Shown: positions 1-6,000 of the stretch, in pieces
How the letters are laid out: the number at the start of each line of letters is the position of its first letter
Position numbering within the stretch: position 1 is the stretch's first letter
Position numbers: made by a program
NCBI RefSeq assembly: GCF_058153355.1
Contig: NZ_CM177019.1
Strand: one strand, 5' to 3'
DNA: 64,000 bases

Positions 1-3000
1 ATGTGTCGGATATCAGTGTGAAACTCCAGGAGGCATAACGTGCAGAATGTGGCTGCCACTGTGCTTGCGCAGTATGCTGCCAGCCCCCGACTCAATGCCC
101 TCATTAACAGCTTTAACGCAGCGCTTTCCCCCGACAGTTTTATCAGTGATTTTTATGGTCTTATCTGGAACATCGATACCGCAGAAAAGTATGGTCTTGA
201 TGTCTGGGGAAAGATTGTGGGTGTCAGTCGCCGGCTGACGGTAAAGGACGATTTTAATTACCTGGGCTTCAGCGAGTCCAGGATGGACACCCCGGTAATG
301 GATGATCCCTGTCCGTTTAATCAGGCACCGTTTTACAACGGAAAATCGGATACCCGGACTGTTGACCTGTCTGATGCTGTATACCGGCGGCTGATCCTGA
401 TGAAAGCCATGTCGAACATTACTGACTGTTCCGTTCCGGATATTAACCGGATGCTGAGATTTATGTTCGGAAAAAAACGCCGGGCTTATGTTCTGAATAA
501 TGGTGGATTGAGGATGAGTTACATCTTTGAGTCCGCGCTCTCGTTGGCAGAACTGGCGATTATCCAGTCGTCGGGTGCACTGCCGTCCCCGCCGGGTGTT
601 TATGTTTCAGTAGTTTTAAAGGAGTCCCGTAATGAAGGCCAGTGATAAACCCCGCCAGCTGGCGGTCCCCTTTGCGAGTACCGGAGATAAAAACCGTATC
701 CCGGACAAGGCGACACAGCAGACCAGAGAGAGCGGTAATGCTGCGTATGATTCAGGTTTTCCTCCGGTGACCATGACAGCGGTCTCAGCGGGAGGTATAC
801 CGCCACACGGCAAGGATTTTAACGGTCTGATGTACGATATTACCGCAGCAATACGGTTCGCCCAGGCTGGCGGTTTGTACACGTATAATGCCGGTTTTGC
901 GGGGGCCATTGGTGGATATGCAAAAGGAGCCATTCTCGCCGGAGTCGCAACAACAGCGGTCTGGCTGAATACCACAGACGATAACCTGACCGATCCTGAA
1001 GGCTCCGACAGTGCGGGCTGGGTAAATCTTCTTGAGGATCCGAAAAGGATATTCCTGCGGCAGAAGAACAATCTGTCAGACCTTCAGAATAAAGGGACGG
1101 CACGGGATAATCTTCAGGTTTACAGTAAAGAGCAGTCAGATCAACGCTATGTTCATCAGGAAGGCGATACCCTGTCCGGTGGACTTACTTTTGAAAACGA
1201 CTCAATCCTCGCCTGGATTCGGAATACTGACTGGGCGAAGATTGGATTTAAAAATGATTCGGATGCAGACACCGATTCCTACATGTGGTTTGAAACGGCG
1301 GATAACGGTAATGAATATTTCAAATGGAGACACCGCCTCGCTGGCGGCCGGGTTAAAGACCTGATGAATCTCAAATGGGATACACTAAATATTCTGGTTA
1401 ATGCCGTCATTAATGGTTGTCTTGGAATTGGTACGACGAATGCGTTAGGTGGAAGTTCAATCGTTTTAGGAGATAACGATACCGGGTTTAAACAAAATGG
1501 CGATGGTCTGCTTGATGTTTATGCGAATGGACAGCATGTATTTCGTTTTCAGAATGGCGTGGCTATTGCTTTTAAGAATATTCAGGCCGGAACTGCCAGA
1601 AAATTCACGTTATCCAGCGCCAACAACTCCACGAAAAATGCAGCGTTTTATTTGTGGGGTAATCCATCCAGGCCTGTTGTTGCAGAGCTTGGTGATGATT
1701 CAGGCTGGCATTTTTTCAGCCAGAGAAACCCGGATAACAGCATAGTGTTCACTGTTAACGGACAGGTAATTCCGTTAAATTACGGAAACTTCGATGCCCG
1801 CTATAAATATCGAACAGAGGGGGTACAGGATGTACGGTATGGCCATGAAATGTATTACGGCCCCGGCAGTAACACTGTTTCGTGGAGATTTTGCGCACCT
1901 TCGGGACACGGGCTGTCAGGGATATCGATATCGGATACCGGCCGTAACTCAGCGGATAACGTCAACGGTGTGTATTACCGACCGCTGCAAAAACTGATTA
2001 ATGGCACCTGGTATAACGTAGCGAGTATTTAACAATGTTGCATTTAAAAAATATTACTGCGGGTAATCCGAAAACAGCAGAACAATATCAGATGACAAAA
2101 CGATATTCGGTCACCTGGCTTTTTTCAGAAGACGGAAAAAACTGGTATGAAGAGCTGAAGAATTTCGCCAGCGACACAATTAAAATGACTTACACCGGAG
2201 ACGGTCGCGTGGTGTGGGTCGGTAAGGATGTGACAGGCATCGAGCCACGCAATGCCAGCGTTATCGAAGTTCCGGATATTACCGCTAACCGACGGATTAC
2301 CGCGCCGGGTTACTGGTTTTACCGCAATGATGAATTTGTCTTTGACTACAGACTCAAAGCGGAAGATGAGCGTGATGCCCTTCTGGCTCAGGTCAGTGCC
2401 CGGACAGGGGAATGGGAAGAAGACCTGCTGCTGGGGTTAATCAGCGACGAAGATAAAGAAAAGCTGAAAGCCTGTCGTATTTACGCGAAATCACTGCAGG
2501 CGATGGATTTCAGCACCATCACAGATAAAGCCACATATAACGCCATCAACTGGCCGGAGCGTCCCGATGCCGCAGCTTAAAGGTGTGATTAAAACGCCCA
2601 CGGGAGAACCGCTGGGCGGCGCAACCATTACACTAACCTCCATGCACAACCGTGCAGGGATTCTGAAAAGTGTTTTCAGCCATGTCACCACACAGAACGG
2701 GGAATATGACTTCCCCGTTCTGCCGGGTGTGTACAGCGTTCGCCTGACACAAAGCACACGGCGCCTTTCAGAAATCGGTGTCATCCGCGTTTATGAAGAT
2801 TCAACGGACGGTTCGCTGAATGATTTTCTGGGCGCAACTAATATTGACCTGCGTCCGGAATCCCTGAAGAAATTCGAAGAGCTGGCGCAACAGGCGCAGC
2901 AGAGTGCCGGGAGCGCAGCCGGAAACGCACGGCAGACGGCGCAGGATGTGACGGCAGCCGCAACGGCCCGTGATGATGCACAACGTTTTGCGGAGAAAGC

Positions 3001-6000
3001 CCGACAGGATGCAACCGTCACAGCTGAGAACAGAAAGGCCACAGCGGAAGACGTGAAAAGCACAGGGAAAAACGCCGTCTTATCCGGTCAGCGTGCACAG
3101 GCAGCCGCCGGTTATGCCCGCGCAGCAGAACAGGCCAAAAATGACATTGATGCTGCGCTGACCGGCACCCTGAAAACGGCTAACCATCTGTCTGAAATCG
3201 CAGCAGCAGGCGAAAAGGCACAACAGAAGTCCCGGGATAATCTGGGGCTGAAAAGTGCGGCCACGATGGAAGCACAGAGCGACATTTACGACCGGACAAA
3301 AGGCCGTCTGGCGATACCCGGCGCATTCGGCTTTGGGCGTGCTTTTCTGTATGAAGATGTTATCCGTTTTGACGCTAAGGATGATTTCCTGGCCTGGGTA
3401 AGGAATGCGCTGCCAGGTGAATATTCCGTTGCTGGCCCCTACGGCATCATCATACCCGACACACGGTTTGAAGGGGTGCTCAGCATCCGGTGGACTGATG
3501 CACGCCCTGAGACAAGGGAACCGCGGCGCAGAGCCAAATCCCTTACTTTTTACAGCATTAACGGCCCCATTTATCACGCCCCCTACCGGCTCTTATCTGG
3601 ATTTCTGACTGACTGGGTGAAAATAAATATAACCACAGAAGATATTATTTACAGAATCGTGGCGAGCTCTGTCCGCAACAGATGGGGAGACCCTGACATT
3701 GGCGGGCTGATTATTGCTGCGTACCAGGGAGAAGCTGACGGTGATAAAGACATCAGACTTGTCAGGGGGCGGTCATACAGAGGCTCACGACTGGGACCGG
3801 TGGGGATTTCAGCGCCCTGTACTCCCACCGGAACGCATATAGTATACCCACAATATTTCATTACGGGATGTTCAGAGCATTCATTACCGGGGTCATATTG
3901 CGCCCTGTCCGGGGGGCCGGATACATATGTCTCTGGCGCAATGCTTGGGCTTTTTATTCGCACATCGTGAGGAATGCACCGTGGAAATTAAAAAAATCAT
4001 TAATCCCCGTTATACCGAAAGTGGTGCAGTAGACTGTGACGTTTTTTTTGACGACAGGGCCCCGGCAGTCCCCTACACAGCCACCGCTGATGATGTCGCT
4101 CCGACGGGTCAGCAAATCTGGCAGGAACTGCAAAGCGGCAAATGGGGTGAGATAGCCCCATTCACTGTGACACCAGAAATGCTGGAAGCGGCCAGAGAGG
4201 CCAGACGTCAGGGAATTGAAGCATGGCGCACAGAACAGGAGGCGAAGCCGTTCACGTTTGAATGGAACGGTCGCACGTGGAACGCTGGCCCCAACTCACT
4301 GGGCCGCCTTTATCCGGTGGTAATGGCTGCGAAATCCGACATTGTACGGGACGTGATGACGTGGGGTGATGCCGATAATCAGCAGGTGAAACTGTCGATG
4401 CCGGAACTGGAAGAACTGGCGGCAGCAATGGTGCAGGCGCAGGTCGATCGCAACGATGAGATTTATCGCCGTCAGCGTGAAATGAAAGAGGAGCTGAGCG
4501 GTCTGGATGATTTGGCTTCAATTCGGGCGTTTGACGTTGAGTAATGAATAAGCCGCAACTGGCGGAATCACAGAAGACTGCTTTGCTTACCGAAGCGGAG
4601 TCTGTCATCCGGCCGCCGGGGCGTGCTGTCAGGCTGAACAGGGAAACGGATGAATCCGGGGAGGCCCGGGGGCGGGCCTCTGTTTTTCCGGAGTCAGTCC
4701 GGTCTGTGGTTTATGCGATGTGATTATGAATGGTGCAGTTGTGAGCCGTTTTCAGACAATCGCAGGGCCAGTACCTCGTCAGTCAGCTGACGGTAAATCT
4801 GCTGTTCAGTCTCACGCATCACCTGTGCACCGGCTTCCCTCTCCGCATCCGCATCACCGCTCAGACCTGATGCTTTCAGCCGGTCAGCCACCCTCTGAGG
4901 GTACTCATTCTCCAGCATCTCATATTTCTGCTCTTCTGCCTGCGCCCAGCGGTCAGCTTCCGTACGCTTCAGTACAGCATGCCATGGTCCCCAGAGGGAG
5001 AACCAGTCCGTAAATTCATTCTCTTCACGGCTTCTGACCATGGCTTCGGCAGTGCGGAGGTCATTTGCTGTCACTCCCGACACGCCATAGAAACGCATTT
5101 CCTTCACGGCAGTGGAGAGCTGAAGTTTCTCTGCGAGCATGGTCTGGAAGGCCAGGTAGACTTCTATCTCATCCACAAAATGGAGAGTTCTGACTTTATC
5201 CCGGGCAATGTCCTCCAGAATTTCGAGGCGGAACATTTCCCTGCCCAGGGAGAGCAGAGCGCCGGTATCATTATCGAAAAGGCCTTCTGATGCCTGATGG
5301 ACCAGGAGGGTTTTCCGGAGATTGTTCCATGTGAGCGCGACACGGTCCTCACAGCTCTCAGTGGCATCAGCAGCAACAGTGAAAGACTGCTGTCGAAGCT
5401 CCGCAGAGGCACTGAGTTTTTCCAGCCATGCAGCGACCTGTTCACGGAATCCGGAGGTATTGCGTGCAGAGACGGTATCGGAAAGGCGGTCAAGGAACGC
5501 GGAAAAGGTGTTGGCGTGCTCTTCATGTTCAAAAGCATGCCATATCTGTGATACATCAGATTGTTTGTTTTCCGGGAACCATGCTGTCACGGCATCAGCC
5601 AGGGGGCGATGGAGTGTATTCTGTTGTCCGTCACTCATGGAGAAGTAAATCCGTGGGCCGTGGTAGTCCGGCGAAGAGGTTAATCTTTGCAGGGCTTGCA
5701 GAGTGCGAGTCGACAATGGATTGTTATAAATATTAACATCTGCATAAATGTGCAGATTCATGATACTGTCTGGCAATGTGTTCAGCTGATTGTTAGGGAT
5801 ATATAGTGATTGCAGACGTTGTGGAAGTTCGGGCAGTCTGTGTAGTTGGTTTTCCCCAACGTTTAAAAGCCTCAGATTTTGAGGAAGGGGCGGTAGCTCT
5901 TGTAATCTGTTATCAAAAGCACTTAGTTCCTGTAGTTCACATGGTAATTCTGGTAAGGCAGTAAGCTGGTTGTTGCCAACAGAAAGTTTTTGTAGAGCCG

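What the first reader, a model, noticed from the sequence alone, without database searches (positions are those of the whole stretch)
40..4544. Two tail-fibre plus chaperone gene pairs in tandem in the same orientation
ORFs 632-2032 with 2035-2580 and ORFs 2567-3970 with 3927-4544 form two consecutive fibre/assembly pairs on the same strand. Tandem (rather than invertible) duplication of receptor-binding modules could reflect a dual-fibre phage or a recombinational mosaic of host-range cassettes. No flanking inverted repeats or invertase gene were seen, so this is not a Mu/P1-type invertible G segment.
Basis: partly seen in the sequence, partly recalled or inferred. Interest (0 to 1): 0.3.

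Follow-up and report, generated by a model that had tools for sequence, protein, structure and literature searches.

The report
Two-fibre tail cassette of ipaH prophage
The right end of a Shigella/enteroinvasive E. coli prophage carries two unrelated tail-fibre genes, each followed by its own helper gene, an arrangement already present in sequenced phages such as phiP27, so the finding is real but ordinary.

Summary
The four ORFs exist as described and all are fibre-related. Pair 1 (632-2032, 2035-2580) is a Mu S / Mu U homologue pair. Pair 2 (2567-3970, 3981-4544) is a lambda-Stf-type fibre with a PF08400 N-terminal domain, followed by a DUF4376 protein. DUF4376 proteins were shown experimentally to be fibre chaperones in other phages.

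The two pairs share no sequence similarity, so this is not a duplication. There is no invertase in the 64 kb window and there are no flanking inverted repeats.

The same gene order (wedge, fibre, Tfa, Stf-like fibre, DUF4376) occurs in sequenced phages phiP27, Rac-SA53 and vB_Apl-pPE4. It also occurs in at least 30-35 of 80 IMG/VR loci, on at least two different contractile-tail backbones, with or without ipaH.

Fibre 1's N-terminus co-varies perfectly with the upstream wedge gene. Fibre 2's N-terminal class tracks the tail type (contractile-tail versus lambda-like after lom). The C-terminal parts of both fibres are shuffled between backbones.

Best reading: a conserved dual-fibre host-recognition cassette, made of a primary baseplate fibre plus an accessory side fibre, with the convergent effector gene ipaH as cargo just downstream. 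It is already known at annotation level. Interest is low.

The parts
1..38 (+). 3' end of the baseplate J/gp47-family wedge gene (…VSDISVKLQEA*)
   Evidence: Collinear with the end of the baseplate J gene in the EIEC prophage L003 (13797-15038), whose translation ends …DVSDISVKLQEA.
40..645 (+). DUF2612 baseplate wedge protein, the probable docking partner of fibre 1
   Evidence: PF11041, E=2.7e-65. Homologue of Vibrio phage XM1 gp17 wedge protein, 7KH1, E=1.9e-7. In XM1, gp17 holds the baseplate spike (PMC10457771).
632..2032 (+). Fibre 1: Mu S / P2 H-type tail fibre. The N-terminal ~177 aa form a tail-specific anchor; the distal part is an exchangeable receptor-binding part.
   Evidence: 5YVQ_A, E=1.5e-55. 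82% nt identity to P2 H over 1163-1738. The N-terminal type is perfectly linked to the wedge type and the C-terminal type is not.
2035..2580 (+). Tfa1: Caudo_TAP tail fibre assembly protein (Mu U type)
   Evidence: PF02413, E=6.6e-27. 5YVQ_B, E=8.6e-37. dN/dS 0.07-0.19.
2567..3970 (+). Fibre 2: lambda-Stf-type fibre. It has a PF08400 Ig-like N-terminal anchor (about residues 4-129), an Ala/Gln-rich shaft and a C-terminal receptor-binding domain (about residues 225-467).
3981..4544 (+). DUF4376 fibre chaperone (long ORF from 3927; probable true start GTG 3981)
   Evidence: PF14301, E=7e-16. 74-77% identical to phiP27 L57, Rac-SA53 tail4 and pPE4 gp70. AF2 model pLDDT 96.5, with three N-terminal strands, a helical body and hairpins, as described for the proven chaperone V22 gp27 (PMC7289586, PMC10579305).
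4550..4690 (+). Relic 3' fragment of a P2 G / P1 U-type Tfa gene, plus the intrinsic terminator (4660-4690) that ends the fibre operon
   Evidence: Residues 3-48 of the 59-aa ORF are 61% identical to residues ~111-159 of P1/P7 gpU and P2-like Tfa proteins. Terminator. The relic is present in 40/40 ipaH-bearing loci and in 2/40 loci without ipaH.
4724..6487 (-). ipaH (LRR + NEL E3 ubiquitin ligase, type III secretion effector): convergent cargo gene, not part of the fibre machinery
   Evidence: NEL PF14496, E=7.6e-77; LRR_TTSS, E=9.3e-20. Annotated ipaHa/ipaH3 in EIEC genomes.

Best explanation
This is the distal end of the late (tail) operon of a temperate prophage with lambdoid early genes and a contractile tail. 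The tail has an E217/PB1/XM1-type baseplate. The prophage sits next to yfaS in a Shigella/EIEC chromosome. It encodes two different, non-paralogous receptor-binding fibres, each with a dedicated chaperone.

Pair 1. The fibre is a Mu S / P2 H-type fibre. Its N-terminal ~177 residues are specific for the upstream (baseplate J)2-DUF2612 wedge and presumably dock there. Its Mu U-type Tfa binds the fibre's C-terminus and drives trimer folding.

Pair 2. The fibre is a lambda-Stf-type side fibre, built from an Ig-like N-terminal anchor, a coiled-coil shaft and a C-terminal receptor-binding domain. The DUF4376 protein presumably caps its tip as a trimer during folding.

All five genes are read as one transcript ending at the terminator at 4660-4690. 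The virion would therefore carry a primary baseplate fibre plus an accessory fibre, giving two receptor specificities at once rather than by switching.

Shown here: the homologies, the conserved gene order, the co-variation of anchors with tail type, the intact ORFs, and the absence of an inversion system.

Inferred: the docking sites, the chaperone action, and the presence of both fibres on virions.
For: - Family and PDB matches for all parts.
- Identical gene order in sequenced phages phiP27 (L53-L57), Rac-SA53 (tail1-4) and vB_Apl-pPE4 (gp66-70), and in EIEC prophages.
- Of 80 IMG/VR loci with a close DUF4376 homologue, 76 have the Stf-type fibre directly upstream. 30 show the full four-gene order and 35 have a Caudo_TAP gene directly before fibre 2. 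These lie on DUF2612-type and Mu-like backbones, and 20 of the 30 lack ipaH.
- In L080 pair 1 is a different allele (lambda stf/tfa type), yet the two-pair layout persists.
- Wedge type versus fibre-1 N-terminal type gives ARI 1.0; wedge type versus fibre-1 C-terminal type gives ARI 0.15.
- Fibre-2 N-terminal classes N0 and N2 accompany contractile-tail wedge genes (29 loci; N0 also occurs in 2 of the 21 loci that contain lom). The lambda-like class N1 accompanies lom in 19 loci and never a wedge gene. One C-terminal cluster is shared by all three classes.
- DUF4376 proteins are experimentally required chaperones in V22 and in Campylobacter CJIE1.
- Long-term dN/dS is 0.15-0.20 for both helpers against their phage homologues.
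- There is one strong terminator, and it lies after the last gene.
Against: - No virion proteomics or EM for any member was found, so the presence of both fibres on particles is inferred.
- Among the Shigella/EIEC copies, fibre 2 has dN/dS 0.6-0.9 (10 synonymous versus 28 non-synonymous changes) and DUF4376 0.34-0.51. This suggests relaxed constraint, or diversifying selection, in these largely IS-ridden prophages.
- The orthologous locus in EIEC strain VL46 has lost pair 2.
- The part of the prophage upstream of the window cannot be seen, so it is unknown whether it is inducible.
- Co-variation of adjacent sequences can also arise from plain linkage.
Confidence: 0.8

Rival explanations
1. Pair 2 is passenger DNA. 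The block 'fibre 2 - DUF4376 - Tfa relic - ipaH' was recombined as a unit from another (lambda-like) prophage into a phage that needs only pair 1, and this virion does not use it.
For: - The block from the fibre-2 3' half to the ipaH NEL half is 97-99% identical at four loci of one S. dysenteriae genome and in the window.
- dS is far lower for fibre 2 (0.02-0.03) than for Tfa1 (0.21-0.28) against the same comparators.
- The same fibre-2 C-terminus plus DUF4376 plus ipaH also follows lom in lambda-like prophages.
- VL46 lacks pair 2.
Against: - The four-gene order exists in 20 loci and three sequenced phages without ipaH.
- The window's fibre-2 N-terminal class (N2), and class N0, are found with contractile-tail wedge genes. 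The lambda-like class N1 is found with lom and never with a wedge gene. The anchor is therefore not a lambda import; only the distal part may have been exchanged.
Confidence: 0.12
2. The genes are intact-looking relics of a dead prophage and have no present function in this host. Only ipaH is under selection.
For: - Most Shigella copies are cut by IS elements, and many database entries are partial.
- Fibre 2 dN/dS is 0.6-0.9 among the Shigella/EIEC copies.
Against: - All five ORFs are full length relative to their phage homologues.
- Pair 1 and DUF2612 show dN/dS 0.07-0.19.
- The orthologous EIEC locus VL46 keeps a complete head and tail gene set upstream.
- This rival concerns present activity, not what the cassette is.
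Confidence: 0.3
3. Tandem duplication of one fibre-plus-chaperone module, followed by divergence.
For: Only the similar sizes (466/467 aa and 181/187 aa) and the parallel order.
Against: - No detectable similarity between the fibres (E=0.22) or between the helpers (E=15).
- They fall in different Pfam families.
Confidence: 0.02
4. A frozen remnant of a Mu G / P1 C / e14 P-type invertible host-range segment.
For: - Pair 1 is homologous to Mu S-U.
- A P1 U-like Tfa fragment lies after the DUF4376 gene.
- Short Gin-like invertase fragments occur downstream in four related loci: L007, L083, L084 and L085.
Against: - Both pairs are on the same strand.
- There are no crossover-site inverted repeats.
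- There is no Gin homologue in the 64 kb window.
- Pair 2 is not an S'/U' alternative but a complete fibre with its own N-terminal anchor.
- L084 shows no inverted second set.
Confidence: 0.03

Closest known systems
Stx2e phage phiP27, genes L53-L57 (NC_003356)
   Same: Same order: wedge, fibre, Caudo_TAP Tfa, PF08400 fibre, DUF4376 protein, at the right end of the genome next to attR. Tfa is 70% and DUF4376 76% identical to the window's proteins.
   Different: Mu-like baseplate rather than the DUF2612/E217-type. No ipaH and no Tfa relic. Fibre 1 and fibre 2 are only 38% identical. Fibre-2 anchor is class N0, not N2.
Phage Mu S-U tail fibre / assembly pair (PDB 5YVQ) and its invertible G segment
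   Same: Pair 1 is homologous to S and U (E=1.5e-55 and 8.6e-37), and follows the baseplate wedge gene as in Mu.
   Different: Mu obtains a second specificity by Gin-mediated inversion to S'-U'. Here the second specificity comes from an unrelated, co-oriented fibre gene, with no invertase or inverted repeats.
Phage lambda side tail fibre Stf with Tfa (J-lom-stf-tfa)
   Same: Fibre 2 has the Stf N-terminal domain (9e7m = lambda Stf residues 4-92) and an Ala-rich shaft. In about 19 related loci the same distal part plus DUF4376 follows lom, exactly as stf does.
   Different: The chaperone is DUF4376, not Caudo_TAP. The context is a contractile tail. The anchor belongs to a different sequence class (N2) from the lambda-like class (N1).
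Alteromonas myovirus V22 gp26/gp27 (DUF4376 chaperone) and Campylobacter CJIE1 H-fibre helper
   Same: A DUF4376 protein is encoded directly after a fibre gene, and V22 also has a DUF2612 baseplate protein. The chaperone requirement was shown experimentally. The predicted architecture matches the published description.
   Different: Only the DUF4376 domain is shared. The client fibres are unrelated in sequence. No experiment exists for the enterobacterial proteins.
Vibrio myovirus XM1 (two sets of receptor-binding proteins)
   Same: The gp17-type wedge equals the DUF2612 protein, and the N-terminal domain of collar spike gp40 is homologous to fibre 2's N-terminus. XM1 carries one set of spikes on the baseplate and one on the neck.
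   Different: XM1's proteins are tailspikes, not fibres with chaperones. No sequence match was found between the related prophage's neck proteins and XM1 gp4/gp5, so a neck location for fibre 2 is unproven.

Membership tests
Mu S/U (P2 H/G)-type fibre + Tfa pair | Fibre homologous to Mu S / P2 H | tested here: met
   5YVQ_A, E=1.5e-55. 82% nt identity to P2 H over 576 nt.
Mu S/U (P2 H/G)-type fibre + Tfa pair | Caudo_TAP assembly protein encoded immediately downstream | tested here: met
   PF02413, E=6.6e-27, above cut-off. 5YVQ_B, E=8.6e-37. The gene starts 3 nt after the fibre's stop codon.
Mu S/U (P2 H/G)-type fibre + Tfa pair | Fibre gene follows the baseplate wedge genes, and its N-terminus is matched to them | tested here: met
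   The DUF2612 gene overlaps the fibre start. Wedge type versus fibre N-terminal type gives ARI 1.0 in 25 loci.
Lambda Stf/Tfa side tail fibre module | PF08400 N-terminal domain homologous to lambda Stf | tested here: met
   PF08400, E=2.9e-29. 9e7m (lambda Stf), E=1.9e-9.
Lambda Stf/Tfa side tail fibre module | Downstream chaperone of the lambda Tfa (Caudo_TAP) family | tested here: not met
   The downstream gene is DUF4376, with no similarity to Tfa1. Only a 3' Tfa relic follows it.
Lambda Stf/Tfa side tail fibre module | Position after J and lom in a non-contractile lambda-like tail cluster | tested here: not met
   Here it follows a Tfa gene in a contractile-tail cluster. The lom context exists in about 19 related loci, with a different anchor class.
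DUF4376 fibre chaperones (V22 gp27 type) | PF14301 domain above the Pfam gathering score | tested here: met
   59.1 bits against a cut-off of 25, E=7e-16.
DUF4376 fibre chaperones (V22 gp27 type) | Encoded directly downstream of a fibre gene | tested here: met
   10 nt after the fibre-2 stop codon. 76/80 related loci show the same arrangement.
DUF4376 fibre chaperones (V22 gp27 type) | Helical body with beta-hairpins and three N-terminal strands | tested here: met
   AF2 model with pLDDT 96.5: E3-11, E17-23, E26-34, long helices and two hairpins. Compared with the published description. This is a comparison by description only; no superposition was done.
DUF4376 fibre chaperones (V22 gp27 type) | Needed for folding or activity of the cognate fibre | not testable with these tools
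   Requires co-expression experiments.
Invertible host-range segments (Mu G, P1 C, e14 P) | Adjacent Gin/Cin/Pin-family invertase gene | tested here: not met
   No tblastn hit of Mu Gin in the 64 kb window. None in the 15-20 kb upstream of the fibre genes in the EIEC loci.
Invertible host-range segments (Mu G, P1 C, e14 P) | Inverted crossover repeats flanking the variable part, with the alternative set on the opposite strand | tested here: not met
   No exact inverted repeat of 16 nt or more. The same script finds Mu's. Only short imperfect pairs were found. All genes are on the + strand.
Dual-RBP contractile phages of XM1 type (baseplate + neck) | gp17-like wedge protein and gp40-like N-terminal domain on the second RBP | tested here: met
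   7KH1 gp17, E=1.9e-7. 7KJK gp40, E=7.6e-8.
Dual-RBP contractile phages of XM1 type (baseplate + neck) | Second RBP bound to the neck (head-completion and tail-terminator proteins) | tested here: inconclusive
   The neck proteins of the related prophage L003 gave no sequence match to XM1 gp4/gp5. The only neck match was to the E217 head-to-tail connector. The location needs cryo-EM.

The most novel reading that the evidence does not exclude
In these temperate enterobacterial contractile-tailed phages the Stf-type fibre may not sit on the baseplate. It may instead bind through its own anchor classes (N0/N2) to the neck or collar, as the homologous N-terminal domain of XM1 gp40 does. The virion would then carry receptor-binding fibres at both ends of the tail. 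The anchor class would be a predictor of mounting site that can be swapped independently of the receptor-binding tip.
Probability: 0.2. Interest if true: 0.4.

Novelty: already known. Interest (0 to 1): 0.17.

Why it matters
The practical value is modest.

- It corrects the idea of a duplication.
- It shows that the 'DUF4376 protein' annotated in thousands of Shigella/E. coli genomes is the probable chaperone of a lambda-Stf-type fibre.
- It shows that the two fibres have separable anchor and tip modules. That knowledge is useful for predicting or engineering host range of phiP27-like and ipaH-carrying phages.
- It documents that ipaH cargo always begins at one fixed junction after this cassette, which helps to trace how Shigella effectors spread.

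None of this overturns current understanding.

Tried and rejected
- Exact-sequence look-up of the four proteins found nothing. The source strain could not be named; the closest relatives are S. dysenteriae, S. boydii and EIEC at 96-98%.
- A DNA-level count of the Tfa1/fibre-2 junction in E. coli genomes was uninformative, because fibre 2 is too divergent. Only 4 genomes matched.
- The phiP27 paper is not held. One literature query was malformed. Searches on ipaH prophages and on Rac-SA53 gave nothing on the fibres.
- A concatenated-protein PDB search for an XM1-like neck in the related prophage found only E217-type sheath and connector, so neck attachment of fibre 2 stays speculative.
- The invertase fragments found in four related loci were followed up in L084. 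They are degraded, and no inverted second gene set is present.

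
Full report
**Observation.** They are preceded by 40-645 and followed by a convergent 587-aa ORF at 4724-6487. Pfam and PHROG scans assign them as follows:

| Coordinates | Assignment | Score |
|---|---|---|
| 40-645 | DUF2612 | E=2.7e-65 |
| 632-2032 | many 'tail fiber' PHROGs | – |
| 2035-2580 | Caudo_TAP | E=6.6e-27 |
| 2567-3970 | PF08400 'prophage tail fibre N-terminal' | E=2.9e-29 |
| 2567-3970 | phrog_2636 | E=9e-188 |
| 3927-4544 | DUF4376 | E=7e-16 |
| 4724-6487 (-) | IpaH-type LRR + NEL effector | NEL E=7.6e-77 |

One correction concerns the last gene. 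The family match starts at residue 17 of the long ORF, a GAGGA sits six bases before GTG 3981, and the homologues in sequenced phages are 187-188 aa. The gene probably runs 3981-4544 and does not overlap fibre 2. Window bases 1-38 are the end of a baseplate J gene.

**What the parts are.**
- Fibre 1 and its helper are homologues of Mu tail fibre S and assembly protein U, whose complex is solved (5YVQ; E=1.5e-55 and 8.6e-37).
- The DUF2612 protein is a homologue of the XM1 baseplate wedge protein gp17. In XM1, gp17 holds the baseplate spike (PMC10457771).
- The N-terminus of fibre 2 matches the N-terminal domain of lambda Stf. The 9e7m chain is 100% identical to lambda at 19659-19925. It also matches the neck-binding domain of the XM1 collar spike gp40.
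- DUF4376 proteins are experimentally required fibre chaperones in Alteromonas phage V22 and in Campylobacter CJIE1 prophages.
- The AF2 model of the window's DUF4376 protein (pLDDT 96.5) has three N-terminal strands, a helical body and hairpins. This is the architecture described for V22 gp27 and A5 gp9, which are proposed to cap the fibre tip as trimers.

**Not a duplication, not invertible.** The two fibres (E=0.22) and the two helpers (E=15) show no similarity to each other. Only short imperfect inverted repeats occur. There is no exact inverted repeat of 16 nt or more in 1-7000, whereas the same script recovers the Mu G-segment boundaries. Mu Gin has no tblastn hit in the whole 64 kb window. 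Only one strong terminator is present, at 4660-4690 after the last gene, so the five genes look like one transcription unit.

**Context.** The window is 96-98% identical to prophage ends in enteroinvasive E. coli and S. dysenteriae. In EIEC strain VL46 the orthologous site lies beside the yfaS/yfaQ/yfaP genes and has an identical-length ipaHa. It carries a complete head and contractile-tail gene set upstream and no invertase, but it has lost pair 2. VL40 and VL7S7 keep both pairs next to ipaH3/ipaHa. The related tail module matches the Pseudomonas phage E217/Pa193 sheath, the baseplate J 'triplex' and spike, and XM1 gp16. Core genes in the window are typical E. coli/Shigella. The exact strain could not be identified.

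**The arrangement is conserved and already sequenced.**
- phiP27 (L53-L57), Rac-SA53 (tail1-tail4) and vB_Apl-pPE4 (gp66-gp70) have the same order: wedge, fibre, Tfa, PF08400 fibre, DUF4376. In each it lies at the right end of the genome.
- Helper identities to the window are 39-85% for Tfa and 74-77% for DUF4376. The fibres are far more divergent.
- I surveyed 80 IMG/VR loci that encode a close DUF4376 homologue. Of these, 76 have the Stf-type fibre directly upstream and 30 show the full four-gene order with my queries. In 35 a Caudo_TAP gene lies directly before fibre 2.
- The four-gene loci lie on DUF2612-type backbones (11) and Mu-like backbones (12). Twenty of the 30 have no ipaH.
- In L080 pair 1 is a lambda stf/tfa-type allele, yet the two-pair layout is kept.
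- In about 19 loci the fibre-2/DUF4376 pair follows lom, as stf does in lambda.

**Modular logic.**
- Across 25 loci the type of the wedge gene and the type of the first 150 residues of fibre 1 are perfectly associated (ARI 1.0, eight types). One C-terminal type is shared by six wedge types (ARI 0.15).
- Fibre 2 has three N-terminal classes. The lambda-like class (MAVKISGVLKDG…) accompanies lom in 19 loci and never a contractile-tail wedge gene. The classes MSVVISGALIDG… and the window's MPQLKGVIKTPTG… accompany contractile-tail wedge genes in 29 loci. The first of these also occurs in 2 of the 21 loci that contain lom.
- One C-terminal cluster is shared by all three classes.
- The same C-terminal domain is also found fused to the P2 H-type anchor PF12571.
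- Both fibres are thus built as a tail-specific anchor plus an exchangeable tip with its chaperone. This argues that fibre 2 is an adapted part of the contractile-tailed virion rather than a stray lambda gene. Linkage alone could produce some of this association.

**Mosaic and selection.**
- Similarity breakpoints recur at about 1162, 2555 and 3967.
- Against close relatives, dS ranges from 0.002-0.005 (ipaH) through 0.02-0.03 (fibre 2), 0.04-0.15 (DUF4376) and 0.09 (fibre 1) to 0.21-0.28 (Tfa1). The chromosomal neighbour yfaS stands at 0.21.
- dN/dS is 0.07-0.19 for DUF2612, fibre 1 and Tfa1.
- dN/dS is 0.6-0.9 for fibre 2 and 0.34-0.51 for DUF4376 among the Shigella/EIEC copies. For DUF4376 it is 0.15-0.20 against phage homologues.
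- With few substitutions this cannot separate relaxed constraint in decaying prophages from diversifying selection.

**Mechanism proposed.** The wedge complex (baseplate J)2-DUF2612 holds fibre 1 through its N-terminal ~177 residues. The Mu U-type Tfa binds the fibre's C-terminus and nucleates trimer folding, by analogy with 5YVQ and as summarised in PMC7882524. Fibre 2 trimerises from its tip under a DUF4376 trimer cap and docks through its Ig-like anchor at a site that is not known. The homologous domain docks at the tail tip in lambda and at the neck in XM1. The virion would carry both specificities simultaneously. Homologies, order, co-variation and the lack of inversion are shown here. 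Docking sites, chaperone action and virion composition are inferred.

**Comparison and verdict.** The closest known example is phiP27 L53-L57. Pair 1 is a member of the Mu S/U family. Fibre 2 has the lambda Stf anchor but fails the 'lambda Tfa' and 'after lom' criteria. Its helper is a member of the DUF4376 chaperone family. The invertible-segment family is excluded on every tested criterion. Because the same cassette is present and annotated in phages sequenced since 2002 and in thousands of Shigella/E. coli entries, I rate it already known and of low interest. The one reading with some novelty is that fibre 2 is neck-mounted, as in XM1. That reading is not excluded and not supported beyond domain homology.

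Noticed in passing
window 4544-4723: The 59-aa ORF that starts on the DUF4376 stop codon is a relic. Its residues 3-48 are 61% identical to residues ~111-159 of P1/P7 gpU and P2-like gpG assembly proteins. It is followed by the operon terminator at 4660-4690. The relic is present in 40/40 related loci that carry ipaH and in only 2/40 that do not, so it marks a fixed left boundary of the ipaH cargo block.
   Followed up: yes
window 2630-5700; L007-L010: The block from the fibre-2 3' part through DUF4376 to the NEL half of ipaH is 97-99% identical at four separate loci of one S. dysenteriae genome. Each locus has a different ipaH (608, 587, 547 and 583 aa), and most are cut by IS elements. ipaH dS to relatives is 0.002-0.005, whereas the flanking yfaS is at 0.21. 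This implies recent spread of the block by recombination.
   Followed up: partly
phage records (P-EibA/C/D/E, Rac-SA53, SerU-LTIIb, phiP27): A DUF4376 gene lies close to the end of several short records named after other virulence cargo: the eib immunoglobulin-binding genes (P-Eib phages) and LT-II enterotoxin (Rac-SA53, SerU-LTIIb). In the P-Eib records it is the first gene. The site after this gene may therefore be a recurrent cargo position. The position of the cargo genes themselves was not checked here.
   Followed up: no
[not shown]
   Followed up: partly
window 2567-3970: Among Shigella/EIEC copies, fibre 2 has dN/dS 0.6-0.9 (10 synonymous versus 28 non-synonymous changes against VL40). 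Pair 1 shows 0.07-0.19. This is either relaxed constraint or diversifying selection.
   Followed up: partly
L002 (PP818812.1, 'Actinobacillus phage vB_Apl-pPE4'): This phage is 79-82% identical in DNA to the window over Tfa1 and DUF4376. Its gene order from the antirepressor to the DUF4376 gene is the same as in E. coli prophage Rac-SA53. The Actinobacillus host label looks doubtful.
   Followed up: no
L072 4764-9275: One IMG/VR locus carries three fibre-related gene sets in a row: a lambda-type Tfa, the Stf-type fibre with DUF4376, and then a further fibre-1-like C-terminal part (82% identical) with a Tfa1 homologue (93% identical) downstream.
   Followed up: no
L083 6358-6492, L084 8379-8666, L007 13120-13215, L085 10061-10156: Fragments of a Gin/Pin-family invertase lie downstream of the cassette, or of ipaH, in four related loci. 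In L084 the fragment is degraded, with no inverted second gene set. Nothing comparable is in the window.
   Followed up: partly
window 6165-6267: There is a 43-nt direct repeat with 60-nt spacing inside the 5' part of ipaH. It is probably two 20-residue leucine-rich repeat units.
   Followed up: no
window 6500-11593: In the aligned EIEC loci the interval between ipaH and the alpha-2-macroglobulin gene carries only annotated transposase and DUF1175 gene fragments. The prophage/chromosome junction therefore looks degraded. The 1539-aa alpha-2-macroglobulin ORF (6974-11593) is intact in the window, whereas it has an internal stop in strain VL7S7.
   Followed up: no
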